Assembly (NCBI RefSeq): GCF_006345805.1 | Contig: NC_043007.1 | Coordinates: 49,476,001 to 49,540,000 of the forward strand | Direction of reading: 5' to 3' | Length of the DNA stretch: 64,000 nucleotides | From: Octopus sinensis | Taxonomy: Eukaryota | Notes under the pieces: model-generated | Told to the model about the DNA's origin: nothing | Seen by the model: the letters and a program-made list of their open reading frames with translations, nothing else | Database searches by the model: none | Program-made: the position numbers and the translations under genes | Shown here: piece by piece, positions 4,115 to 59,423 of the stretch | Numbering within the stretch: position 1 is the stretch's first letter | Layout: each line of letters begins with the position of its first letter

Positions 4115-5223
4115 GTGGGTTGTTCGTTCAACAGCCTTAAACAATCCTTATTCAGGGACCTATTGAGCCGGATGCACTGCTCTTTCACTCAATGATAATA
4201 ATAATAATGATAATAATGATAATAATAATAATAATAATAATGATCTTAACTAACATGGCTTCTGATCTTAACTAACATGGCTTCTGATCTTAACTCATGG
4301 CTTCTGATCTTAACTCATGGCTTCTGATCTTAACTCATGGCTTCTGATCTTAACTGATTGGAAGTGTTATCATGTACATCCGGCTTCTGACCTTAACTCA
4401 TGGCTTCTGATCTTAACTCATGGCTTCTGATCTTAACTGATTATTATGTACATTGTTTTGTCTTGGTATAAAAGATGGGCTACAGCAAATATTCTGCTCA
4501 ATACCACAGACTTGCTGCGTATATTTTACCCCAGTGTCACTTTGATGGCATGCACTGCTCTTTCACTCAATGATAATAATAATAATGATAATAATGATAA
4601 TAATAATAATAATAATAATAATGATCTTAACTAACATGGCTTCTGATCTTAACTAACATGGCTTCTGATCTTAACTAACATGGCTTCTGATCTTAACTCA
4701 TGGCTTCTGATCTTAACTGATTGGAAGTGTGATCATGTACATTGTTTTGTCTTGGTATAAAAGATGGGCTACAGCAAATATTCTGCTCAATACCACAGAT
4801 TTGCTTGTCAGTTGTTTGACCTTAACCAGTTGACCATGTCCCTTAGTGGCTGACGATATGTGCATCTCTGATCACGAGCAGAAGTAGTGGGGGAGCATCA
4901 TAGCCATGTGTTGAGAGGGATTCTTTGGGGTTTGAATAATTCACCTCTGGAAACATGGGTGGTTCTTTCAACATCCTTAAACAACCCTTATTCAGGGACC
5001 TTTTGAGCGGGATGGGCTACTCAACCTGAAGAAAATTCTAACTGGGCCCCACCTGCAAGGTCATGTGCTGTTTATCTTGATATGAGATCACCATGTCGCG
5101 CACATATGGTTGTGATGCATGTGCCTGGTGTACCTTTATCAGACGGGTAGTCATGATGGGTATATTGGGCTTCGTATATTTTACCCCAGTGTCACTTTGA
5201 TGGCATGCACTGCTCTCTCACTC
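4114..5223 (+). repeat. Rearranged tandem copies of the TAA-targeted element with 20-22-nt reiterations
   Basis: catggcttctgatcttaact(aa) repeated at ~4242-4440 and ~4622-4720, interspersed with (TAA)n. Confidence 0.8.
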
Positions 5224-5251
5224 AATAATAATAATAATAATAATAATAATG

Positions 5252-5288
<37 letters not shown>

Positions 5289-6091
5289 TAATTTCTTGAG
5301 TAACCAGATGATGGATTTGGTATTCATGTTTATTTCGTACAATTGTCGTTTCGATCCACCCTTCTTATGGGTGGGACTCCGTTCAGCATGTACTTCATCC
5401 ATCTTGCAGTCTGGTTCTCATCAGGTACATCCACACACAAAGTTGTTTCTCGCTAAATATCTTGAGTTTTGGCTGTCATGTTGGTTAAGGAATGAAACAT
5501 TGCTACAATTTTCAATTACTATTATCTTTCTATAATAAGAATTGGAAACATTTGTGAAATAGGCAAATAACTGTTAATAAAAAAAGATGACTGTCGGGGA
5601 AGTGAGTGGATAGATAGGGATGGATTGAGTTACACAAGGTTTAAGACAAAGGAATAGCATTAGAAAAAGAAGGGAGAGATATATACCGGCTAGAATGTGC
5701 AGGGGATGAAAGATTTTTTAGCTAGCTAGCTAGCTTTGGTCAGAGATGCGTATACATACTTTCACACCTCACCCCGCTCGTAAATACACGCACACAGGGG
5801 TCGTTGCCCCACCTGTCCATATGGTCAATTTCAGCTGTAGTTCGTATAATTTATGGCTCGAAGACAATCTCACCATAAATCTGTCATCATAGTCACCATG
5901 GTGTGAAATGGGGTGCATCGTGCATTTGTTAGAAATACAGAGTGTTTTCTTGGATCTTCATGTGGTTGTTTTTTATTAACCTTTGAAATCGGAGTAGATT
6001 TTCTGCCGCACTTTGTAGATATGCATACGTACCCAGTTACATATATACATCTATTTTATATGCACACATGCACGCACCCTCACACACAGGT

Positions 6092-6145
<54 letters not shown>

Positions 6146-6719
6146 ACACGCATATATATATATATCCGCATATACATATATATATATTCACGCACACACA
6201 TGCATGTGAGATCCATATATATGCGCATACGCATACGACGTAATACCCCGCACACTCTCTCCACACACGCAGACACACATGTATACGTATATCTACACAC
6301 ACCAATACGCACACAGGTAGTTGCACACATACACATACACATTCCTGCATCGAGTTCATTTTTCGAGCAATAAGTAATTGGCATATATTATTATTATTTA
6401 TGTACAGCTGCATGGTAAGGTTACATATCTAAAATTATATGAACATCAATATCTGCACACAAGTGTTAAGGTGAAGAAAGGCATAATTAATGTTAGTTTA
6501 GAGGCTACGTTCCTACATGATACCTTTGGAAGTCAACAAAGAGTCACTAAAGTATGCAAACTTAAAGATACTAGAACATAGCCTCTAAACTAACGTAACA
6601 GGTGAAGTGTCTAGAGAGGCAAAAATATGCCTTTCTATATATAAACTGAGAGAGATGTAGCACCATTAAAATCTATTTGAAGCTATTTCAAGAACTGACG
6701 ACATAGAATCTATTGAAAC

Positions 6720-7200
6720 TCCACTTAACGCTCCAATGTCTCAACCCAGTATGCTATAATCACAAGAGTTTAAGGCTATGAAAATAAGGTCACCAGATAT
6801 ACGTGTCATGCTCTTTTCACCTGTCCTCATGAATTTATATCAACATTAATATCTCCATACTTACTCCAGTCTCTACTTAATCATGTTTTAATCATATACA
6901 ATCACATTCACTTACCTCATATCCACTTTTCTTCCACAGATCAAACTGCTAATATCTCTTTATCTTTAGTCCTTTATCTTCAGGTTAATATAGATATTTG
7001 TATCAGCCCATTCACTTTCCTATTTATGTTTTTTATTCTTCATTCTCTTATAACGCCAATCAAGATAGTCTGTGTGAGAGAGGGAGAGAGAGAATGACCT
7101 TATGCAAACTCAAATATTTCCCGTTCATTATGTCCTTTCACGTTTCAAGATAAGACACCAATAAAAATGTGTGCATTAGTCATTGAACCTTATCTTTCAA
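6720..7200 (+). mobile_element. Old Penelope-like remnant (family also at 10830-11920 and 13560-14160)
   Basis: Diverged inverted similarity to ~10860-11330. Confidence 0.4.
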
Positions 7201-7225
7201 GCAGTCAATTAGTCTCTCTCTTTTT

Positions 7226-7316
<91 letters not shown>

Positions 7317-7317
7317 C

Positions 7318-9245
7318 AAGTTTCACTGGTCCCACTCCCGAACTATACAGCCGTTATATCGACGACTGTATCGGTGTGTCCTCACTCTCCCGCGAACATC
7401 TAGACTTGTTCCTATCTTTTGTCAAATCTTTCCATCCTGCTCTCACCTTCTCCTGCACTATCCCTGATACTTCTATCTCCTTTCTTGACATTTCGGTCAG
7501 CATTCATTACTCCACTCTCACCACCTCCATCCACTACAAACACACAGAATCACACTCATACCTCAACTTCTCATCCTCGCACTCTAAACATACCAAGCTC
7601 TCCATCCCCTATTCCTAATTCCTCCGTCTGCGCAGGTTCTGCAGTGACGACCATGAATTTGAGACTCAGTCTCAACTCATGACTCGCCACTTCATCCTAC
7701 ATGGATATCCCTTGACCACTATCCACACCGCCCTTGCCAGAGCACGTTCCATCGACCGTGCATCTGCTCTCTCCCTCCGCACCTGCCCCACCGTCTCCCG
7801 TCCTCGTTTTCCCTCACCTACCACCCTACCCTACCTCTCAAACACACCATTCTCTGAGCCTTCCGGCGACTCCAGTCCGACCCCTCCACTTTGCACATTT
7901 TCCCTAACCTCCCCTCCCCTCCTTCAAGCGAGCCCACAACCTACGAGACCTCTTGGTCCACAGCTTCTTCCCTAACAGAACCTCCCAACCTGGCTCGTTC
8001 CCCTGCTTCCTCCCACGCTGTCACACTTGCTTACCTCTCCATCACCACCCTCCTCAACTGCACCCATCATCGACACTATCATAACACCGATTCCTTCACC
8101 CACACTTCTAGCAATGTCATCTACTGCATCTCTTGCTCTCTCTGCTCTTCTACCCCGGTCTCGCGCCATTTCCGCTCTACCGGTCACACTTTGCAACACC
8201 TGTCTGTGTTCGGATTATCCTTGCACAGGGGCCATCCGGATCCCGTCTTAGCCGTGAACAGGGATTAATCTTCTCTCTTCGCTCCTTTGCGTCACATGGG
8301 CTCAACTCTCCCCCTCTTCACCTAACCCTCTTCCCGTCTCCTCTCTTCCTCTCACACCTACTTCCTCCCAGCCACCTCTCCTCTCTTGCTCGGACTCCAA
8401 CTTTTTCTCTTCGCTCCTACCCTCCTTCTCTCTTCTCTTCACTCCTACCCCCTTCTCCCTTCCCCCTCTCCCTTCATTGTCACCCCTCCCTCGTAACCAC
8501 CTCTACACAATCTAACCCGACATTCCCTATCCATCTCATCCCACCCCACCCCATCCCTTACACCTACTCCCACATACCCCACCTCTACTCCGACCCTCAG
8601 CCTAACCCAGACCCCACTCTCACCCCACATCCCAACGCCACCACACAACACCACACCACACACTACCACACCACACTAAACACCACCACACCACATACCA
8701 CCACACTACACATCACCATAACAACACACCACACACTACCACACCACACTAAACACCACCACACCACACACCACCACACCACACCACATACCACCACACT
8801 ACACATCACCATAACAACACACCACGCACTACCTCACACACCACCACGCACACACTAGCACTGACCACTTCCCAGGACCTTCACCATCAGCCACACACCT
8901 ACACATGCACACACGCCAAGGTCACCCGCTCTCTTCCACACGCACATACATGCTCTCTTATACACACGCACGTGCGCTTTCGTTTTGGGATCACCACTAC
9001 TTTATTATCTCCCCTTCTTCCTAGCTCTCCTGTGTAACCCCTCTATCCGGCAATCACCATGTTAGATCGCTAGCCGCTACATAGTCTTTATTTTCTCTCC
9101 TTGTTTCTTTGCGTTACTTTCTGTGGAAGAGCGTAGGCTAGAAAGGTTAAAGTCTTTTTCACTTCCCGAGCGTTAAACTAATACATCTGTTTGTTGTCTA
9201 CACCATCTGTCTTCGTCTTTTGTTCCATTTTGTGAATTCTTCCCT
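7318..9245 (+). mobile_element. Penelope-like element, 5'-truncated and frameshifted
   Basis: RT core PELYSRYIDDCIG, SFLDISV, HYKHTESHSYL, then NVIYCISCSLC. Homologous to 17776-20430. Flanked on both sides by (CTAT)n. Confidence 0.9.
9117..9152 (+). ncRNA. Degenerate minimal hammerhead in PLE 3' terminal repeat
   Basis: cttt-CTGTGGAA-gagc gtag gcta-GAAA-gg-TT-aaag; homologue of 17883-17918. Confidence 0.55.
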
Positions 9246-17778: not shown

Positions 17779-20430
17779 CGGGAAGGTTTAAGGCTTACGA
17801 AAATAAACAAAAGACGAAGGCAGGTGGAGTACAAACAAATAATTATATTAGTATGGCGCTCAGGAATAGAAATAAAACAAGTCTTTTACGTTTCGAGCCT
17901 ACGCTCTTCGACAGAAAGATACACAGAAAAGAAACAAGGAGAGAAACAAGGAGAGAAAAAAAATGCGTGCAGGAGCTAACGATTCAACATGGCGTTCTGA
18001 TTAAGGGTGCGTGTGTGTATAAGAGAGTATGTATGTGCGTATGAAAGAGGGCTGGTGGTCTGGACGTGTGTATGTATGTATGATGTGATGTGTAATGTCG
18101 CATGGTGTAGTGTAGTGTCGTATGGTGTAGTGTAGTGTGGTGTGATGTTGTGGGGAGGTGGGGGGCCAGAGTGGGGAAAGCCCATGTGGGGTGTGGGTCC
18201 GGCTGGGGTTGGGGTAGAGTGGGGGTTGTGGGGAGAGTGAAAGGGGGAGAGCAGAGAGAGAGGAGAGGAGGAGGGAAGAGAGATGAGGGGGAGGGGAGAG
18301 AGGAGATGAGGTGGAGAGGGAAGGGGAAGGGAGGAGAGATGAGGGGGAGGGGAGGAGGAGGGAGAGGAGAAGAAAGGAGAGGAGAAGAGGAGGGGTGGGA
18401 AGAGGGGAGGGGAAAGGAGGAGAGGGGGAGAGAATGGGAGTGAGAGAGCACAGAGAAAGAGAGAAGGGGAAGAGGGAGGAAGAAAGGGGAAAGAAGAGGG
18501 AAGAAGGGAAGAGGAGTGAAAGAGAGTAGGGGTGAAAAGATGAAGGACTGAAGAGTCGGGGGGAGGTTAGATGAAAAGGGGGGAGAGTTGAGACCAAGTG
18601 GCGTAAAAGAGCGAAGAGAGAAGATTAATCCCTGTTCACGGCGCAAGCGGGAATCCGGATGGCCTCTGTGCAAGGACAATCCGAACACAGACAGATGTTC
18701 CAAGGAGTGACCGGTGGAGCGGAAATGGCGTGAGACCGGTGTGTCATTGGCAAGGCGGATGTCACGGAGGTGTTCCGCGAACCGATCAGCCAAGCGGCGT
18801 CCCGTTTGTCCGATGTACAGAGAATGGCAGAGAGAGCAGGAGACGCAATAGATGATATTGCTGGAGGTGCAGGTGAAGGAGTTGATGATGCGATAGGGTC
18901 GATGATGGTTGCCAGTGCGGAGGGTGGTGTTGGAGAGGTAAGGGCAAGTGCGGCAACGTGGGCGGGAGCAGGGGAACGAGACAGGTTGGGAGGTAGGGTC
19001 AGGGAAGAAGCTGTGGACCAAGAGGTCTCGTAGGTTATGGGATCGTTTGAAGGAGGGAAGGGGTCGGTTAGGGAAGAGGTGTGAAGTGGACGGGTCGGAC
19101 TGGAGATGCCGCAAAGCTCGAAGAATGGTGCGTTGGAGAGGTAGGTGGTGGGGTGGTAAGTGAGGGGAAAAGGGCGGGTTCGGGGGGAGAGAGCACATGC
19201 ACGGTCTACGGAACGTGCTCTGGCAAGGGCGGTGTGAATAGTGGAGAGGGCGTATCCACGTAGGATGAAGTGGCGAGTCATGAGTTGAGACTGAGTCTCA
19301 AAGTTATGGTCGTCACTACAGAGCCTACGTAGACGGAGGAATTGGGAATAGGGGATGGAAAGCTTGGTGTGTTTGGGGTGGGAGGAAGAGAAGTTTAGGT
19401 ATGAGTGTGAGTCTATGTGTTTGTAGTGAATGGAGGTGGTAAGAATGGAGTGATGAATGCTGACCGAAATGTCGAGGAAGGAGACAGAGGTGTTGGAGAT
19501 AGTGGAGGTGATGTGGAGGGCAGGATGGAAGGATTGAACGAAAGAGAGGAAGGAATCTAGATGTTCACGGGAGAGTGAGGTGGCACCGATAATGTCGTCA
19601 ATGTAACGACCGTATAGTTCGGGAGTGGGACCAGTGAAACTAGAGAATATTTGGGCTTCATCATAGCCAACGAACAGGTTCGCATAGTTGGAGTTAAGAG
19701 AAAGGACAAGTTCGGCCAGACGAATGAGTGTGGAGGTGTCGGGTTCGGGGTTGAGGCGGACGTCGAGAAAGTGTTGAAGTGCCCGCAGTCCTTAGTTTGA
19801 GGGATGACGGTATAGAGGCTTTGGATGTCCATTGTAAAAAGTATTTTGGAGGAGCCGGGAGGAAAGGAGAAAGAGTTGAAAAGCCGGAGAGCATGGTTGG
19901 TGTCGTGGACGTGGGAAGGAAGAGACGCCACTAGGGGGGCAAGGACACGGTCGAGGTATTTTGAGATAAGCTCCGTGGAGACGATGGGGGGGCCAGGGTT
20001 GTTGGGTTTGTGGATTTGGGGGAGGAAGTAAATGGTGGGGATGCGTGGGGTTCGGACAATGAGGTTCAATGCGGTGTGGGGGAGACAGGAGGACGAGATG
20101 AGGTCGTGGACAGTAGAGAATACCGTCTGGTAGTAGCTAAGCGTGGGGTTAGAGAACAGAGAGGAGTAGAAGGAGGTGTCATTGAGTTGGAGGAGCGCCT
20201 CGGCCGGGTAGAGGTCCGCGCGCCATGCCACCACAGCTCCACCCTTGTCAGCCGGTTTGATGATAATGTCAGCGCGCCGTTGGAGGTAACGAAGAGCCGA
20301 GAGCTCAGCCGGGGAGATGTTGAGGCGGCGGTGGCGCCTGGAGAAGTTGAACCGCTCCAACGCACGCTGACAGGCACCTGCGAAAAGATCCACTGCTAGG
20401 AACTGGCCGGGGGCAGGCGTCCACAGGGAA
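17776..20430 (-). mobile_element. Penelope-like element (RT + GIY-YIG), disrupted
   Basis: IIIKPADKGGAVV, MDIQSLYTVIP, ELYGRYIDD, then IIYCVSCSLCHSLYIGQTGRRLADRFAEH. Contains frameshifts and lacks the GxAMG motif. Confidence 0.95.
17883..17918 (-). ncRNA. Minimal hammerhead variant in PLE 3' repeat
   Basis: cttt-CTGTCGA-A-gagc gtag gctc-GAAA-cg-TA-aaag. Confidence 0.7.
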
Positions 20431-20632
20431 AAAAGAGAGAAAAAAAGGGAAAAAAACAAACGTTCGAAAAACAACAACAAAAAAACTATCGCTCGAAAAA
20501 ACTAGATAAAAAAGCGATAGGAGCAGAAAATAAAGGCGAAGAAGATGGGACAAATAGAAAAAGGAAAGAAAAGAAAGAAAGCAGAGAGAAATGTATATAT
20601 GTTTATATATGTATATATATGTATATATATAC

Positions 20633-28055: not shown

Positions 28056-29915
28056 TGTCTTGCTTCTCAAGACGTTCGATCTTGTTTGTTCTAGTAGATT
28101 ATGTTAGAGTGGACATCATCCTACTGTCAGAGATCTCACAGGGTCTTTTTCCGCACATTATAAGCTTTAATACTTGATTATGGATATTCAACTTTCTAGT
28201 ACCAATGTCACAATCCTAGCTGTCCTCAACAGAGCATGTTTTAGATTTGCTTTGCTTTCTCGTCAATTACGATTTGTTTGACATATTTCTCGAACTTGGT
28301 TGTTAGTGCTCCGAGTGCCCCTACAGCTACTAGAATGACACTCCCCACAGTCCAAATTCTTGAAATTTCGTCTTTTAGTAGTCTGTACTTTTCAATTTTT
28401 CTAGTTCTTTGTCACTTATGCGTGCATCCCCAAGTATTGCAATATCTATAATCTTGTATTTTCCTCCTTTATCTACCACAACAATATCTGGTCTCTGTGC
28501 ATCAATTAGGGAATTACATGAATTGCAAAATCTCACAGTATCTTATATTCCTTATTCTCAGTGACTCCATTTCCGTGCTCTGTTCAGGCCCACATAGCCT
28601 CCAGTGGACGAACATAATCACATATCCTACAAAGGGGCGATTGGCTACTCTTATCTATTTGGAACTTAGTGTAATTAGTTCTCAGATCTTATTCTTGAGT
28701 GGTGCATGTCAATGCATCAGTGCATCCTTTCAGATCACATTTTCTTAGCCATTTCCAATTGTTGATCTTGTCGTTTCCTTCAATTTCGCGGAGGTATTGC
28801 CCATGCAGAGATTTCATTTTGTAATTGTTTACTCTTTCTTCTTCATCTCTTTATCTCGTTTCTTAAATATTTGTGGGTGCATCACATTTTCTAACAGTGG
28901 CAAGCAAGGATTCACTTTGCCGCTTGATGTACTATCCTAGACGATTCTTCTCGTTGACACAGATCTTGCATTCTATGAGACCTCTTCCTCCCCTCTACCT
29001 AGGCTCGTACAATCTGTCAATATCACTTTTGGGGTGCAGTTCCTTGTTAATTGTCATAACTTTTCTGGTTTTCCTGTCCATTTCCTTAAGTTCGTTCTTT
29101 GCCCACCCAACAACGCCTACACCATATCGCATTAAGTAAACAGCCTGTGTGTTCATTGTCCTGATCTTATATTTTCCATCGAACCTAATTTCCATAATTA
29201 ATATGTTTTTTCTCAGATATTCTCGCCTAAATATTTCCTTAATTTCACTTGATTTTGTCGTATTCCAAAATCTTCATTATACATCCTTTATTTTCTCCCC
29301 GTTGGGTAGCTCTACGCCATCAGACGATACTACTTTGCCTCTTTGTATTACAAGCATACCACACTTTTTATCCCAAATTCCATTCCGATATTCTTACTGA
29401 ATATCTGCGCTGTTTAAAACTAGGTCATTTATTTCACTTTCGGTCTTCCCAAAGATCTTTAAGTCACCCATATATAACAGATGATTTAATTTTCTTCCAC
29501 TTTTCAAAGTGTACTCTGATGTCACTTTCCGTAGTATCTGTGTGAGGAGTATTATACATATCACAAGCTGCAATGGTGACAGGCTATCTCCTTGAAATAT
29601 GCCTCTTTTGATGGTAACCCTCGCAAAACATTTTTAACGTGAAGATAACTCTGTATTCCAGTTTTTCATTGATTATCTCCTGACAAAATTTGATGTTATC
29701 AGACACATTTATCAGCTCCAGTACTTTCTAAAATCCAGGAATGGGGGACCATGTCATACGCTTTCTTATAATCGATTCACGCCATCCCCTGATTAATTAG
29801 TCTGTTCTTACAGTCGTTCAGTACCATTCTGTCTATCAGAAATTAGTCTTTTGTCACTCGGCTTTTGCTTCTGCATCCTTTCTTTTCCATTGGAGTTTGT
29901 CATTGATTTACCGAA
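28056..29915 (-). mobile_element. R4/Dong-like element, degraded RT to RLE
   Basis: RGIFQGDSLSP, YGVGVVGWAKNELKEMDRKTRK, LHPKSDIDRLY, LHGQY, RPDIVVVD. Confidence 0.85.
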
Positions 29916-29935
29916 AGTAAGACACATAATTAGAT

Positions 29936-30397
29936 TAGAAAATTACTATTTTAAAATCTCACAACGTGAGATATTCAGCAACAGTGCTTTTTAGTAAAGA
30001 TTGTTTGCCAACATAACATGGCAGTCTTGGTTTAGGACTAATGTTGCTGTAATTTAGCCCCAGGAATATCTCACGTTGTTAGATTTAAAAATAGTAATTT
30101 TCTAATTTATAAATCAGTGACTGGTTGTCACTTTGAAAACTTTTTATTTCAAACGGGAATTTGGCACCGCCACCTCTAGCCGAACAATTATTCTGTGCTG
30201 ATGAAGGAACATAACCCTGAAATCGCGATACACAGATATTGTTTTGAACTGAATGGGGGTGCTAAATTCCCTTGTTCGAAAATAGAAAGACACAGATCGT
30301 GTCGTATAGCCAGCTGGAGACGATGTCTCCTGTGGTTAAATTACAGCAACATTAGTCATAAACCAGGACTAACATGTTATGTTGGCAAACAATTTTT
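29936..30397 (+). mobile_element. Non-coding hammerhead-bearing element (retrozyme-like) with 12-bp TSD
   Basis: acataattagat at 29924-29935 and 30398-30409; internal HHR; nested inverted segments. Confidence 0.7.
30192..30236 (+). ncRNA. Type-I hammerhead ribozyme, intact core
   Basis: tctgtg-CTGATGA-agg aacataac cct-GAAA-tcgcga-TA-cacaga; predicted cleavage after 30230. Confidence 0.9.
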
Positions 30398-30420
30398 ACA
30401 TAATTAGATATTATTATTAT

Positions 30421-32869
30421 ATGAAAAATCACAGCTTATTTTTCTGGGTATGATGGAAAGTGTCAGCTGTCCACAGCTAGCAGATTAAGTCGACACTGGT
30501 TTACTGGTTATGCTTCAAGAACCCCACAAAGAATTCTTGCAGTTTCATGCAACTTTGATTTTTGTAGGTGTTCTATCTGCACACTTGTACCAATCATTTT
30601 TAGCCCTGTTGGTAGTTGGATACCGATATTTCCAAGTGCATCACTTACTATTGGTATCACGTCTACTCTCTTTGACCACAATCTTTGTATTTCCCACTTC
30701 AAATTGTCATAGTTGTTTATTCTTCCTTCTTTCACATTGATCATGTTGTCACAGGGGTATGCTATGTCGATGATCATACATGTTCTTTCTTTTTTATATA
30801 TCACAACAATATCCTGTTTCCGATGCCTGAGCGGGTGATCGCACTGGATCATTGCATCCCACAGGATTTTGCAGTTCCTATTTACGGTAATTTCTTCTTG
30901 AGTGTGCTCGAACAACATCTTTCCTCTTTGTTGGCCATAATTTCCACAGATCTCTCAATGGATCATTCTTGCTATATTGTCATGGCATCTTTTGTATTCG
31001 AGTTGTGCCAGTTTCGGGCATTCACTAATGATGTACCATACCGTTTCACCCCTCTCACCATACAATCTGTATTTATTGCTATCGGTGGTGTTGTCTATTA
31101 TGGTTGGTCCTTAATGCTTGTAGTTGGTGCTTAATGCTTGTAGTTGGTGCTTAATGCTTGTTCCTGAGCTGAGTATATGAATGCTTCTGTCTCAATCTTC
31201 AGGTCACTCCTCCTCATCTATAGCCACTGTATTGATGTTAACATCTCTTGCAAACTGACTGTATATTATTTCCTTCCATGCCTTTTCTTTTCTTTTTGCT
31301 CAATTCTTGCTTAAATTTTTCTTTAGTTACACAATTTTCAGTTTTGATGACGCCGGCCTTCTTCGTGTGTTTCAAAAGTGGCTCCACGGTATTTTATATA
31401 TACCACCCTAAGCTGCTTTCCTCTGCTTCGATACATTCATAGCAACTGATCAAACCTCTCCCACTGTTTCTTCTGGACGAGTATACCCTATCCGTGTCCC
31501 TCTTAGGGAAGAAGGCGCCGTGTAGTCAACATTTTCTGGCCTTGGTATCCATTATTTTCACTTCTCTCTTTTACCCTTTTATAATTCCCGCTTCATACCG
31601 AAGTGATGCAATCGCCCACGTATTAACTGCTTGGATGTTATTCCTTCCAATCAATTTTGAGCGCAACACCAACTTCAATCTTCGGAAATACTCCATCCTC
31701 ACTTGCTCTTTCATTTTCTTTTCCATTATCTCGTTGAACACCCCAAGGTATTTGTATCCCTCCCTTTCAGGTTGTTTAATCATGTCTCTATTCTTTAATT
31801 CTATCCCTTCAAGGGACTGTACTTCGCCTCTTTTTAGGTGAATTATTCCGCACTTCTTGAGTCCAAATTCCATTCTAATATCAATACTAAAACAGTGGAC
31901 AGTGTTCACCAAAGAACTCACTTTTGTCTTATCTTTGCCATACAGTTTCAAATCATCCATGAAGGGGAGGTGGCTGATTGTTTGGGATTTTCCCTTTCTT
32001 TGGTACCCCAGGTTCATTTTCCTAAGTACCAAAGTCAGAGTTTGATGCAGATAATAAAAAGCAACGTAGATAGGTTATCACACTGGAAAATCCATCTTCT
32101 GATAACCAGGCTTTTTTTCCGTCGAGCTTTTTCCGTAAGGTGTCAGTTCAGTTTTCTATCCCACCATACTTCTCTTCAGGAAACACGTTGTATTCCTCTC
32201 AGTTCCAAACAGGTCTATGCACTCGATGATCCACGAATGTGGAATCATATCATAAGCTTTGCAATAGTCAATCCAAGCCATTCCCAAGTGTGTTCTCCTT
32301 CGTTTACAATCTTGTATTACCGTTTTGTCTATCAATACTTGATCTTTGGTACCTCTGCATGTCCATCTACAGCCTGTTTGTTCCGTCGGTAATATATCTT
32401 TCTTATTAAGAAATTTATACAGTTCTTCTGCAACTCCTCCTGACAGTACTTAATGGTACGCATAAAATTGGTTTATAATTGTCAGTACCATTTCCCTTTC
32501 TTCTTCTCCATTGATCAATGCATTAAATTGCTCTGCGATCAATTAATGGCAACTCCTGAACTTCTTCATCCAAGATCACTGTACACTATCAGGTCCTGCT
32601 GCTTTCAAAATGTTTATCTTTTTATACACCATACTTCTTCCTAACTTTCTTCGAATTTCCATTCATACTTAAGTTCCCCATTTCTTTTTCCCAACAAGTA
32701 TTGACATTACACTGCTCAAAGAGTTTAAATCTTCCGAAATTCTCCTTTTCCACCATGGTTGTTTATTTCCTTTCCTATTCGTCGCTGTTCTGTTCTGAGT
32801 AGTTCTTAATCCTGTTGTTTTACTAGGAGCCTCGATAAGATTATTTGTTTGTGTGATGTTTTTGTTTCA

Positions 32870-36806: not shown

Positions 36807-36842
36807 GTTTTAACGTTTCGAGCGAAACTCTTCGTCAGAAAC
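36807..36842 (-). ncRNA. Minimal hammerhead with extra A after A9
   Basis: gttt-CTGACGA-A-gag tttcg ctc-GAAA-cg-TT-aaaac, inside a ~200-bp solo unit (36710-36915). Confidence 0.75.
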
Positions 36843-52553: not shown

Positions 52554-52919
52554 CCAAAATTGGACAAAAACGCAGAACATCCGGTCAGCTAGGTGATACA
52601 AAAAGAGACAACAAAATATCCTGATAGACGGCCACGTGGGAAGAGAAGAGAGAGAATTAGAAGCAGAAGAACAGAAGAATTAAGGAGAGACGAGAAAAAA
52701 TGACAGAGACACAGTGAAGTGAAAAGTGGAGGGAAAGGGAGGAAGAAGAGAAGGCAAAGAAATATGGAACGAAAGAACAAAGAATGGAATGAACGAATAA
52801 GCGTGAAAAGGCTGATAGAAATAGAGCCGTACAAGATTTTGAAAAATGTGTACTTACATATAAGAGAACAAAGTGTATGTACGCCTCTCTCTCTCTCTCT
52901 GTATATATGTATATATAAA

Positions 52920-54790
52920 TTGAGACCTATAATAGCAGGTCCCACATACGAAACCCACCGCCTAAGTAACTTTTTAGATACCTTCTTAAAACCATTCTTC
53001 AAACATGTCAAAAGCTATATAAGGGACGACCTGGATATGCTCAATCACCTTCCTAAAATAATAAACAAAAACACCCTACTAGTATCCTTCGAAGTAGTCA
53101 ACCTCTATTCCAATATCCCCACAACCTAGGAATAGATGCAATTCAATTCTGGCTAGAGAATTACGCCAACGAACTCCCATGGTTGTGAGAGAAGGGCTAA
53201 AATTCATCCTGGAAAATAACTACTTCGTCTTCAAAGACAACTTCTTCCGACAAAAATCGGGGACTGCGATGGGTACGCGAATGGCTCCCTCCTTTGCTAA
53301 CCTAGTCATGGGATATCTAGAAATCAGTCTATATCTTAAGGTTCTAGAAAGATACGGCAACCCTTTCTCCCTCTACATAGAAAACAACTGGAAGATGACT
53401 GTTTCATTCTTTGGCATGAAAATATAGAGAAACTTAAAGAATTCCAAGCATTTTTAAATGGATTTGACGTAAACATCCAATTCTCGGTGGAATATAGCCA
53501 GCAACAACTCCCCTTCCTCGACATCCTCATTAAGAAATCTAATAACGTAATAGAAACAGATATATACTATAAGCCTACGGATTCCAAGCAATATCTTCCA
53601 TTCAATTCATGCCACCGCAGACACACCAGAATGAATATCCCCTTCAACCTAGCAAAAAGGATATGTACTATAGTTTCTAATGCAAATACCAGAGACACAC
53701 GACTACAAGAACTAAAAGATACCCTCATCACCAGGAACTACCCACCTTCACTTATAGACATATGCATTCAACGTGCCCTTCAACTCAACATCCAGAGACA
53801 CAAACATCCCAAATTAAAGAAAAATTTACAACCAAAAGCCTTACCATATATCTCCATGCACAACCCTCTCAACAACGAGGCCTTAGACACAATCCTCCAA
53901 AACATACCCCTGCTAAAAGAGGACCACAGAATGAACTTAATCCTCCAAACACACACCATCATAAAAAGCAAGAGACAGCCCAAATCTATGAAAAGTCTCC
54001 TAACACAAGCCCGAATACGCTCAACAACACAGAAGCCCTCAGTAAAAAAATGTGGAAGACCCAATTGTGGGGTATGCGATTATCTAATTGAGGGATCAGA
54101 GTTCTCCTTCAAACAGGGACAACGTTTCACAGTGAAAAGCAACTTCACATGTGCGTCAGAGAACCTGATATACACACTAACCTGCTCTGGGTGTCAAGGG
54201 CAATACATAGGCCAAACAAAAAATAGTCTACGTAAAAGAATGGCCCTGCACAGATCCCAGATAAAAATATTTGTATTTTGAAATTAGCTATTTCATCTTT
54301 AAATATGAAAAATAAATTTATTAGGTTTTTATTATATACAATTATTTATAGAGATTATTTTAGATCTTGATTATAATATTTATATATATATTTTCATTGA
54401 TAATTTATATATATTAGTCATTTTAAATATTTATGTAATTAGATATAGACTAATATTGATATTAGATTATGGGTTTCCTACCTTATAAATTAAAATTAAT
54501 ATTTAACATTATAGTCGATTTGGATATAATCATATTTGATAATAGAGTTTATTATAAGTAAAATTATTATATTATATATATTAATTATATCTTTAAAATA
54601 TTGATTTATTTTAGATATGTAAACCACCTGAAGAATGACTGTAACTCGAAAATTTTAAGAATTGAACAGCCGTGAAACGATCGTAGTGTTATATTAATTA
54701 TCTTTTTTAATATAATTTTGATATATATTTAAATAATATGAATTAATTAATCTTATGTATTGGCTTAAGTTTTTCATTGTATGCTTTGCC
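52920..54790 (+). mobile_element. Penelope-like element (RT + GIY-YIG), disrupted
   Basis: LRPIIAGP, VVNLYSNIP, QKSGTAMGTRMAPSFANL, LPFLDI, YYKPTDSKQYL, LIYTLTCSGCQGQYIGQT. Confidence 0.95.
54622..54690 (+). ncRNA. Type-I hammerhead downstream of the PLE ORF
   Basis: aaccac-CTGAAGA-atgactgt..acagccgt-GAAA-cgatcg-TA-gtgtt. Confidence 0.85.
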
Positions 54791-57997: not shown

Positions 57998-58532
57998 GTA
58001 AAGGTGAAAAGAAATTTTTTTTATAATTGAGGAGGGGGAAAAAAGAAAATTACATTGTTTTTTGCAAAAAAATAATAAACATATGCAAAAATTAAAAAAT
58101 AGGTACACCGATACATTGAAAAGTCCTTGTGTATCTCGAGTTCAATGATAGTTCTCGGAAAAATTACCTTGGAGGATTAAGATCCCTATGATTAAATCCA
58201 TATGGTGTTTAATTTAGGATGTTTGTTAAATGAATGTCAAAACAGGAAATGGGGTAGGAGTTATCCAGTTCCTGTGAGTAAGGGGAGACAACTCTGTGGG
58301 TTTTATGCTCTTCAATTGGGATTATCAATTTTTTGTAAGATAGGATGTTAATAAACCTTAAATTATAAAATTATAATTTTAGCTTCATTTGCATTATCTT
58401 TTTTTTATATATAATTGTTTGCTAACTTAACATTCAGATTTTAACACTTTATTTATATTGTTTTCTAATTATATAAATTTACATAAACCAATTTATAATT
58501 TCATTTCAGATTGTTATGTCATGTATAATAAA

Positions 58533-58699: not shown

Positions 58700-59423
58700 T
58701 ATGATTATCGTGGAGTTTGCATATTAAGATGCGTTTTGAATTTTTCAATAAAAAGATTCTCCTTGTTAATTCTTTCTTGTGTGGTGATTCCGTCTTTACA
58801 TTGGTAGAAGGGGAATATGTAAAATTTGGGATTTTTGTCTTTAGCGCACGAGTCTATGTGGCTACTTAGTGAAATTTGACGGTATTCTGGGAGATTTATT
58901 TGTTCTTTATGGACCGCTACTCTTTTACGTAAAGGGAAGTTCGTTTGACCAACATAATTTTGTTGGCAACCGGCGCATGTGAGAACGTAGATATGGTTCT
59001 CGGAGGAACAGGAGAAGTTGGTCTTGATTTTAAACTTTGTTCCTTGTTTGAAGATAAATTCAGAGCCTTCAAGTAGGAAGGGGAAGGTTCCACAGTTTGG
59101 GCGCGCCCATTTTTCAACTGATGGGGGTGGATGTGGTGTGTGAAGCTTGGCATTTGTCAAGAGTTTTTCAAAGATTTATGTTGCCTTTTACATTTGAGGA
59201 TTTTGTGTGTATTGATAATGTTATTCATTTTTGGGTCTGTTGACAGTAGAGTGAGGTTTTGTATGATTGTGGTGTATGCTTCGATATTTTGGGGGTTGTG
59301 GGTGGAAATATATGGAAGTATATTGGGGTTGTGAGTGTTGGGTGGTTTTCAGGGTAATGTTGTCTAGTTCTTTGGTATGTTTTATTCCATACTCTATAAG
59401 GGTGGAGGGATACTGGCGTTGTA
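58700..59423 (-). mobile_element. Penelope-like GIY-YIG domain, 5'-truncated
   Basis: HIYVLTCAGCQQNYVGQTNFPLRKRVAVH..RINKENLFIEKFK; related to 53487-54281. Confidence 0.9.

What the first reader, a model, noticed from the sequence alone, without database searches (positions are those of the whole stretch)
29924..30409. Retrozyme-like element: TSD-flanked, intact hammerhead, evidence of a ~353-nt circular or tandem template
Seen: a canonical type-I HHR (30192-30236) sits at the tip of an imperfect rod (~30140-30289; gggaatttggcacc/ggtgctaaattccc, aacaat/attgtt). The element is bounded by a 12-bp direct repeat (acataattagat) and has no credible ORF. The reverse complement of 29934-30065 reads [30328-30399] + 17-nt linker + [30064-30106], so in the template the END of the forward unit was joined to its START. 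Inference: the template was a circle or head-to-tail multimer with a 336+17 = 353-nt monomer, inserted with a PLE-style 5' inversion. Established: non-LTR retrozymes are small HHR-bearing circular RNAs in several animals and are thought to use PLE reverse transcriptase. I do not recall a cephalopod example.
Basis: partly seen in the sequence, partly recalled or inferred. Interest (0 to 1): 0.85.

Follow-up and report, generated by a model that had tools for sequence, protein, structure and literature searches.

The report
Old Penelope-pasted hammerhead retrozyme copy
This is one old, decayed copy of an abundant 353-base non-coding jumping repeat that carries a predicted self-cutting RNA motif; its two back-to-back arms end at two fixed points, a footprint suggesting it was likely pasted by a Penelope-type retrotransposon enzyme, while self-cutting and RNA circles remain untested.

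Summary
In detail: 12-bp target duplication, type I hammerhead, rod, and an inverted arm that joins the unit's end to its start through a 17-nt linker. Public contigs show a high-copy family under several organism labels in which the 353-nt unit closes on itself, so the join is not a one-off. Family copies end at two fixed sites 58-60 nt apart against AT-rich flanks; this copy's two arms end one at each site, the 'tail plus inverted copy' footprint of Penelope-like elements. Corrections: the copy is old (at least 23 of 468 bases private); its Watson-Crick pair closing helix II is private (about 99% of the family has a purine there); neither arm exceeds one unit; a circle is not required, and two RNA-seq runs show read-through, not a monomer RNA. 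Verdict: new member of the known animal non-LTR retrozymes, likely from an octopod; none of my paper searches found a cephalopod example. This scan has noted the same footprint in other families of this and other genomes (unchecked notes).

The parts
29924..29935 (+). Left target-site duplication (12 bp); last 2 bases shared with the end of the inverted arm
29934..30065 (-). Inverted arm, 132 nt: sense reads [30328-30399 equivalent] + linker + [30064-30106 equivalent]; ends at the distal preferred end of the family
   Evidence: loose ends at 29934-29937 in 4 of 4 DNA runs
29934..29993 (-). 'Tail': 60 nt between the two preferred family ends, present at this end of the insertion only
   Evidence: loose-end clusters at 29934-29937 and 29992-29993; PLE tail concept from PMC11167929 and 10.1101/2021.04.23.441226
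29977..29993 (-). 17-nt linker that closes the 353-nt unit
   Evidence: 116-127 contigs per run show the family letter at 29986; 6 and 2 RNA reads join 30399 to 30064 through 17 letters
30064..30065 (.). Head-to-head junction of the two arms with a 2-nt overlap
30064..30399 (+). Forward arm, 336 nt, 17 nt short of one unit; reads through the predicted cut site; ends at the proximal preferred end
30141..30288 (+). Predicted imperfect rod with the hammerhead at its tip (14-bp stem 30155-30168/30258-30271)
30183..30243 (+). Type I hammerhead with distal stem: helix I 30192-30197/30231-30236, core 30198-30204 and 30219-30222, helix II 30205-30218, 2-bp helix III with palindromic 30222-30229; predicted cut 30230/30231
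   Evidence: activity untested
30398..30409 (+). Right target-site duplication (12 bp); first 2 bases shared with the end of the forward arm; followed by an ATT run that ends another repeat

Best explanation
This is an old, decayed, dispersed copy of a high-copy non-coding repeat family whose 353-nt head-to-tail unit carries a predicted self-cutting type I hammerhead (a non-LTR retrozyme), and it was likely pasted by the reverse transcriptase/endonuclease of a Penelope-like element (PLE). Inferred mechanism: the PLE endonuclease nicked both strands of an AT-rich site 12 bp apart; each free DNA end primed a cDNA on retrozyme RNA at one of two fixed internal start sites about 60 nt apart (2-nt microhomology at each); one cDNA ran 336 nt back through the uncut hammerhead, the other 132 nt back through the linker; the two were joined head to head at a 2-nt overlap. 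The RNA had to be uncut or re-ligated and longer than one unit in sequence content: an uncut linear head-to-tail transcript (my odds about 55%) or a ligated circle (about 45%). Shown: anatomy, family, closure of the unit, two preferred ends, decay. Inferred: the enzyme, the order of events, the form of the RNA. Untested: cleavage, circles.
For: (1) Family: 20 of 24 listed runs, 14 studies, six organism labels hold part of the unit; 5,209-8,180 contigs laid per DNA run on 29800-30520 (some on flanking repeats). (2) Unit closes in other copies: linker bridged (X4 record 25; X15 record 1, X16 record 9), tail-to-hammerhead bridged by 31+ letters each side (X1 record 1, X4 record 26, X16 record 10), 16 of 32 listed DNA pieces bridge the cut site. 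(3) Two preferred ends in 4 of 4 DNA runs: 12 of the 24 loose-end rows shown (of 1,811) lie at 29934-29937 or 29992-29993, 34-70 contigs each, long AT-rich flanks of low agreement (0.41-0.46); this copy's arms end one at each. (4) 8 of the 15 joints shown (of 191) join an antisense arm to a sense arm at other truncation points, so head-to-head insertions are family-wide. (5) A purified PLE protein nicks and extends both strands at AT-rich DNA, starts internally at two adjacent RNA sites that bound the genomic tail, and does not need hammerhead cleavage (PMC11167929, main text read); inverted 5'-truncated copy with a tail at one end is the PLE hallmark (10.1101/2021.04.23.441226, passages). (6) All 9 arm-to-arm mismatches are private to one arm (7 forward, 2 inverted), so the arms look identical at insertion; family letters fold 15-16 kcal/mol better than this copy, about what 21 random changes cost (+12.9 +/- 7.9). 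(7) RT+GIY-YIG PLE remnants lie in the same window. (8) The hammerhead has the extra A between positions 9 and 10.1 described for PLE hammerheads but canonical helix I and III sizes (PMC4209133).
Against: No full dimer or longer array was seen (contigs are short; longest piece on the stretch 190 nt; no genome held). No partner PLE identified: the best similarity of the tail region to a PLE flank in the window (58,360-58,435) is not significant window-wide (1 of 12 shuffled queries scores as high). The tail here (58-60 nt) is longer than the 30-40 bp given for PLEs. Part of the loose ends at 29992-29993 may be clipped linker, since this copy has private changes there. Only 24 of 1,811 loose-end rows were visible, so a branch into a coding PLE is not excluded. 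Rfam does not recognise the hammerhead, helix III has pairing probability 0 in the monomer, and about 99% of the family has a purine-purine apposition at the base of helix II, so cleavage may be weak.
Confidence: 0.75

Rival explanations
1. The template was specifically a covalently closed 353-nt circle, cut by the hammerhead from a tandem transcript, ligated by a host ligase, and reverse-transcribed round the circle.
For: Unit size, low GC (36.8%), strong fold and type I hammerhead match coral, mussel and axolotl retrozymes that make abundant circles (PMC7229834, results and discussion read). Forward arm reads through the cut site; arms identical at insertion and share the same letter at two polymorphic sites (weak, about 0.3 by chance by my estimate).
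Against: The join also exists in DNA of other copies. RNA-seq X23/X24: 2,104 of 12.9 M and 1,809 of 12.0 M records, both orientations about equal, uneven DNA-like depth, no start/end pile-up, 78-82% running into unlike sequence; these libraries may however exclude circles. Both arms copy the same two stretches, which one monomer circle cannot supply without strand displacement. PLE RT in vitro uses unprocessed RNA.
Confidence: 0.35
2. The sequence is the terminal repeat (pLTR) region of a coding PLE, and the copy is an ordinary truncated PLE insertion.
For: Insertion anatomy is that of PLEs; extra A in the core as in PLE hammerheads; some retrozymes are homologous to pLTRs (10.64898/2026.07.22.740005); earlier scan notes found such cases elsewhere (unchecked).
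Against: Other copies run from the tail back into the hammerhead and round again, with no high-agreement branch among the DNA loose ends shown; no frame resembles 70 PLE proteins; hammerhead has full helix I and palindromic helix III, unlike the minimal pLTR type at 36838 in this window.
Confidence: 0.1
3. A LINE enzyme (L1/RTE/R4-type) copied the RNA from its 3' end and made the inversion by classical twin priming on one linear RNA.
For: 12-bp TSD and 2-nt microhomologies fit target-primed insertion in general (twin priming recalled from my own knowledge); the site abuts the ATT tail of another repeat.
Against: No poly(A) or simple-repeat tail on either arm; in classical twin priming the inverted part comes from RNA upstream of the forward part, whereas here it starts 60 nt downstream and overlaps it; two fixed internal ends are a PLE trait.
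Confidence: 0.07
4. A satellite-like DNA repeat spread at the DNA level (recombination, extrachromosomal circles), the inversion arising by repair.
For: Tandem hammerhead repeats also behave as satellites; no RNA intermediate was observed.
Against: Exact TSD, fixed 3' ends with variable 5' ends, and recurrent head-to-head joints in dispersed AT-rich sites are marks of retrotransposition.
Confidence: 0.05

Closest known systems
Metazoan non-LTR retrozymes (coral, Mytilus 350-390 bp, axolotl 331/353 nt; PMC7229834; vertebrate survey 10.64898/2026.07.22.740005)
   Same: Non-coding unit of a few hundred bases, GC under 50%, type I hammerhead with weak palindromic helix III, strongly self-paired predicted fold, head-to-tail closure, TSD longer than 4 bp, thousands of copies, solo/monomer derivatives, PLEs in the same genome.
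   Different: Likely octopod host (0 hits for 'octop'/'cephalop' in PMC7229834 main text, 0 for 'octop' in the preprint; the supplement of PMC7229834 could not be read). Neither main text mentions inverted arms or tails in retrozyme insertions. Family core has A opposite a purine at the base of helix II (axolotl Amex2 has a U-U there). Cleavage and circles shown there, not here.
Endonuclease-positive Penelope-like elements (Poseidon PAc, PMC11167929; insertion anatomy in 10.1101/2021.04.23.441226; hammerheads in PMC4209133)
   Same: Inverted 5'-truncated copy, tail at one end only, two fixed internal 3' ends, AT-rich target, variable TSD, extra nucleotide between core positions 9 and 10.1.
   Different: No RT or GIY-YIG frame; unit closes on itself at 353 nt; tail 58-60 nt rather than 30-40; hammerhead has canonical helix I/III rather than the minimal form.
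Plant LTR retrozymes (PMC4918200, search listing only; described in PMC7761336 passages)
   Same: Non-autonomous retroelement with hammerhead.
   Different: Type III hammerhead, LTRs, PBS/PPT and 4-bp TSD there; none of these here.

Membership tests
Non-LTR retrozyme | Type I hammerhead core and helices in the unit | tested here: met
   Descriptor hit 1 in window, 2 of 60 shuffles; helix I pair probability 0.84-0.99; Rfam models do not match
Non-LTR retrozyme | Short (150-450 nt) non-coding unit, GC under 50% | tested here: met
   353 nt, 36.8% GC; no conserved ORF, no PLE protein match
Non-LTR retrozyme | Head-to-tail closure of the unit in the family | tested here: met
   Linker, tail-to-hammerhead and cut site all bridged in other copies
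Non-LTR retrozyme | At least two consecutive full units with two hammerheads | tested here: inconclusive
   Not in this copy (one hammerhead; no tandem array); contigs too short, no genome held
Non-LTR retrozyme | Multiple genomic copies, TSD longer than 4 bp, no LTR/PBS/PPT | tested here: met
   no tRNA gene in window
Non-LTR retrozyme | Self-cleavage in vitro | not testable with these tools
   Only 1 of 9 predicted Xenopus dimers cleaved, so prediction is not proof
Non-LTR retrozyme | Abundant linear and circular monomer RNA | tested here: inconclusive
   Two raw RNA-seq runs of one study show read-through pattern, no end pile-up; library selection unknown
Autonomous PLE | RT plus GIY-YIG reading frame | tested here: not met
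PLE-type insertion | Inverted 5'-truncated copy with tail on one end; two fixed 3' ends | tested here: met
   tail 58-60 nt, longer than the 30-40 bp described
PLE-type insertion | AT-rich target | tested here: met
   TSD 10 of 12 A/T beside an ATT run; AT-rich loose-end consensus in 4 of 4 runs
PLE-type insertion | Sequence shared with the pLTR of a partner PLE | tested here: inconclusive
   Best window tile lies downstream of a GIY-YIG remnant, but 1 of 12 shuffled queries scores as high

The most novel reading that the evidence does not exclude
An octopod retrozyme family whose 353-nt RNA circle is copied by a PLE protein dimer from both ends of a DNA break, starting at two fixed sites 58-60 nt apart, and whose hammerhead carries a conserved purine-purine apposition at the base of helix II that slows cutting so that circles and multimers survive as templates; its thousands of insertions map the RNA element that recruits PLE reverse transcriptase.
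Probability: 0.3. Interest if true: 0.65.

Novelty: new member of a known kind. Interest (0 to 1): 0.42.

Why it matters
PLEs have been proposed, on co-occurrence, shared hammerheads and pLTR homology, as the enzymes that move animal retrozymes (PMC7229834; 10.64898/2026.07.22.740005), but the main texts of those papers give no insertion-structure evidence. Here the family's ends reproduce the two-start-site, tail-plus-inverted-copy footprint that was explained biochemically for a PLE (PMC11167929), which turns the proposal into a precise in vitro prediction (two start sites at mapped positions on a protein-free RNA). It also extends retrozymes to a likely cephalopod and offers a natural hammerhead core variant to assay. 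This particular copy is old and inert, so it is a modest example rather than a new kind of system.

Tried and rejected
No whole genome held, so no genome-wide count of arrays. Rfam: no hammerhead match; the miRNA models that hit reflect only the hairpin formed by the two arms. A 21-nt window pattern found 0 matches in viral contigs and 0 in metagenome contigs. Earlier-findings look-ups by sequence and near place returned nothing. Link to a PLE flank at 58,360-58,435: score 42, top of 1,146 tiles, 2-3 of 1,000 local shuffles but 1 of 12 window-wide shuffled queries as high; kept as a weak lead only. A step in depth at the cut site (linear cleaved templates): depth rises about 2-fold across 30200-30249, but this copy's private changes lower mappability there and raw reads step at 30218-30224 instead; rejected as evidence. 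RNA-only A>G at the scissile base 30230 (about 40% of reads) as editing: it travels with A>C and C>T changes of like frequency, so more likely one expressed dead copy; no matched DNA. 85-aa ORF starting in the hammerhead core: not kept in the family. Summed contig depth is not a copy number; 'thousands' is a rough inference from contig counts and depths. Paper searches: hammerhead ribozyme + octopus (4 listed, none on octopus hammerheads by title/abstract; one opened), ribozyme + cephalopod + retrotranspos (6 listed), octopus + Penelope + satellite (13 listed), hammerhead/twin priming/Penelope (0 occurrences of 'twin priming' in 15 listed), G10.1/C11.1 mismatch (0 papers); subscription papers and unread supplements may hold a cephalopod example.

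Full report
Observation. A 12-mer is repeated exactly at 29924-29935 and 30398-30409; it occurs only there in the window, and only 1 of 52,993 complexity-filtered position pairs 474 bases apart share a 12-mer. The reverse complement of 29934-30065 reads as 30328-30399 (7 mismatches in 72), a 17-nt linker and 30064-30106 (2 in 43), with 2-nt overlaps at both TSDs and at the central junction. A type I hammerhead descriptor hits once in the window, at 30192-30236, against any hit in 2 of 60 shuffled windows. The forward arm folds at z = -5.95 and the 353-nt unit folded as a circle at z = -5.8, with five control stretches between -1.1 and +2.3. Helix I is well formed (0.84-0.99), helix III is not predicted in the monomer (0), and 30222-30229 is a perfect palindrome able to form an intermolecular duplex of -10.1 kcal/mol, the arrangement described for dimer-acting metazoan hammerheads (PMC4209133, first two of four parts read). 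Rfam does not recognise the motif. No conserved reading frame exists.

Host and context. No genome is held. The window is rich in simple repeats and decayed retroelements, among them RT and GIY-YIG remnants; the named relatives nearest to one of them are from Argonauta hians, Octopus vulgaris and O. bimaculoides, most relatives being unnamed. An octopod host is therefore likely, not shown. The element sits against an ATT run that ends another abundant repeat.

A family, and a closed unit. Twenty of 24 listed public runs from 14 studies and six organism labels hold part of the forward arm. I laid 4 of the DNA runs on 29800-30520: 5,209-8,180 contigs each, mostly 90-95% alike, some belonging to the flanking repeats. 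Other copies bridge the linker (X4 record 25; 116-127 contigs per run at 29986), run from the tail into the hammerhead (X1 record 1, X4 record 26), cross the predicted cut site (16 of 32 pieces shown), and continue beyond the end of the inverted arm into the rest of the unit (loose ends behind 30065 in 4 of 4 runs). In RNA, 6 and 2 reads join 30399 to 30064 through 17 letters. So the 353-nt head-to-tail unit is a family property. A full dimer was not seen; the contigs are too short to show one.

The ends. Of the 24 loose-end rows shown (of 1,811), 12 fall in two clusters, 29934-29937 and 29992-29993, in all four runs, with 34-70 contigs each and long AT-rich flanks of low agreement. These are 58-60 nt apart, and this copy's inverted arm ends at one and its forward arm at the other. 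Eight of the 15 joints shown (of 191) join an antisense arm to a sense arm at other points, so head-to-head insertions with variable inner ends are common; one of them is shared by three organism labels. A caveat: private changes of this copy near 29991 may add clipped alignments to the second cluster. This pattern matches what is known of PLEs: an inverted 5'-truncated copy and a tail at one end only (10.1101/2021.04.23.441226, passages), and, for purified anole PAc protein, nicking and extension of both strands at AT-rich DNA, internal initiation at two adjacent RNA sites that bound the genomic tail, and no need for hammerhead cleavage (PMC11167929, main text and part of methods read). The tail here is longer than the 30-40 bp reported.

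Age and the ribozyme. At least 19 of 336 forward-arm and 4 of 132 inverted-arm bases differ from a letter carried by 90% or more of the family in DNA contigs or raw reads (44 and 12 table rows were hidden, so a lower bound). All 9 arm-to-arm mismatches are private to one arm, so the arms look identical at insertion. With family letters the unit folds at -113 to -114 against -98 kcal/mol, a gap like that caused by 21 random changes (+12.9 +/- 7.9): ordinary decay from a structured ancestor. Three private changes lie in helix II and loop 2. In the family, helix II has three G-C pairs, and position 30218 is a purine in about 99% of depth in all four runs (G about two thirds in X1, X2 and X4, A the majority in X12), so the A at 30205 faces a purine; the Watson-Crick pair seen in this copy is an accident. 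[quoted passage not shown] Its effect on cutting is unknown; slower cutting is my inference.

RNA. In two raw RNA-seq runs of one study (about 6% of each read), 2,104 of 12.9 M and 1,809 of 12.0 M records lay on the element, in both orientations about equally, with a depth profile like that of DNA, no place where many molecules begin or end, and 78-82% of reads running on into unlike sequence; 40-50% of reads over the core carry changes at A6 and at the scissile base. That is read-through of dispersed, partly dead copies. It gives no support to an abundant circle, but library selection is unknown and may exclude circles.

Mechanism. Most likely a PLE enzyme nicked both strands 12 bp apart and primed two cDNAs at the two start sites; the forward cDNA crossed the cut site, so a cleaved linear monomer cannot have been its template. 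An uncut head-to-tail transcript or a ligated circle both fit. Since both arms copy 30328-30399 and 30064-30106, two RNA molecules or two units of a multimer are the simplest source; a single circle would need strand displacement. The coding-PLE rival is disfavoured because the unit closes on itself, no frame matches 70 PLE proteins and the hammerhead is not of the minimal pLTR type found elsewhere in the window, but most loose-end rows were hidden. A candidate shared stretch with a PLE flank in the window was not significant.

Known context and novelty. Non-LTR retrozymes are described from coral, mussel and axolotl, with PLEs proposed as mobilisers (PMC7229834, results and discussion read; supplement unreadable), and a vertebrate survey ties them to pLTRs and finds many solo copies (10.64898/2026.07.22.740005, introduction to discussion read). 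Neither main text mentions octopus, or inverted arms or tails of retrozyme insertions, nor do two reviews mention octopus; five further searches found no cephalopod retrozyme paper. Earlier notes of this scan describe other, younger hammerhead families with the same two-armed footprint in this and other genomes (unchecked, not independent support); none matched this sequence. Verdict: real, a new member of a known kind, mechanistically informative but an old inert copy; interest 0.42.

Noticed in passing
window 36838-36805, minus strand: A second, minimal hammerhead (4-bp helix I, extra A after the core, 2-nt helix III) in a pyrimidine-rich stretch, of the type described for PLE terminal repeats.
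   Followed up: partly
window 54628-54690, plus strand: Decayed hammerhead-like motif downstream of a truncated RT+GIY-YIG PLE remnant (52704-54281).
   Followed up: no
window 58360-58435, minus strand: AT-rich stretch about 270 nt downstream of a GIY-YIG remnant (58705-59175) with two short blocks resembling the element's two preferred ends in the same order; not significant window-wide.
   Followed up: yes
window 30410-32392, minus strand: Decayed non-LTR retrotransposon (weak RVT_1 match; C-terminal part resembles a restriction-like endonuclease of R4/Dong type, recalled) ending in an ATT run; the retrozyme copy sits at that run.
   Followed up: partly
window 7187-8858 plus and 17984-20501 minus: Two frameshifted remnants of another PLE-like family with Cys-rich linker and GIY-like endonuclease motifs by eye; no Pfam hit in the frames scanned.
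   Followed up: no
runs X23/X24 laid on window 29992 and 30399: One highly expressed locus in organism F where a family copy ends at the proximal site and continues into a fixed host sequence (146-242 reads per row), suggesting an insertion in a transcribed region.
   Followed up: no
runs X23/X24 laid on window 30155/30272 and 30163/30264: Fold-back joints exactly between the two arms of the predicted rod, as expected from template switching on a structured RNA or from genomic inversions.
   Followed up: no
run X1 joint 30343 to 30120: A family copy joined through letters that include TTAGGG telomere-like repeats.
   Followed up: no
window 37350-37170, minus strand: A SINE-like repeat that I recall as a common octopus tRNA-derived SINE (recalled, not tested; ARAGORN finds no tRNA gene).
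   Followed up: no
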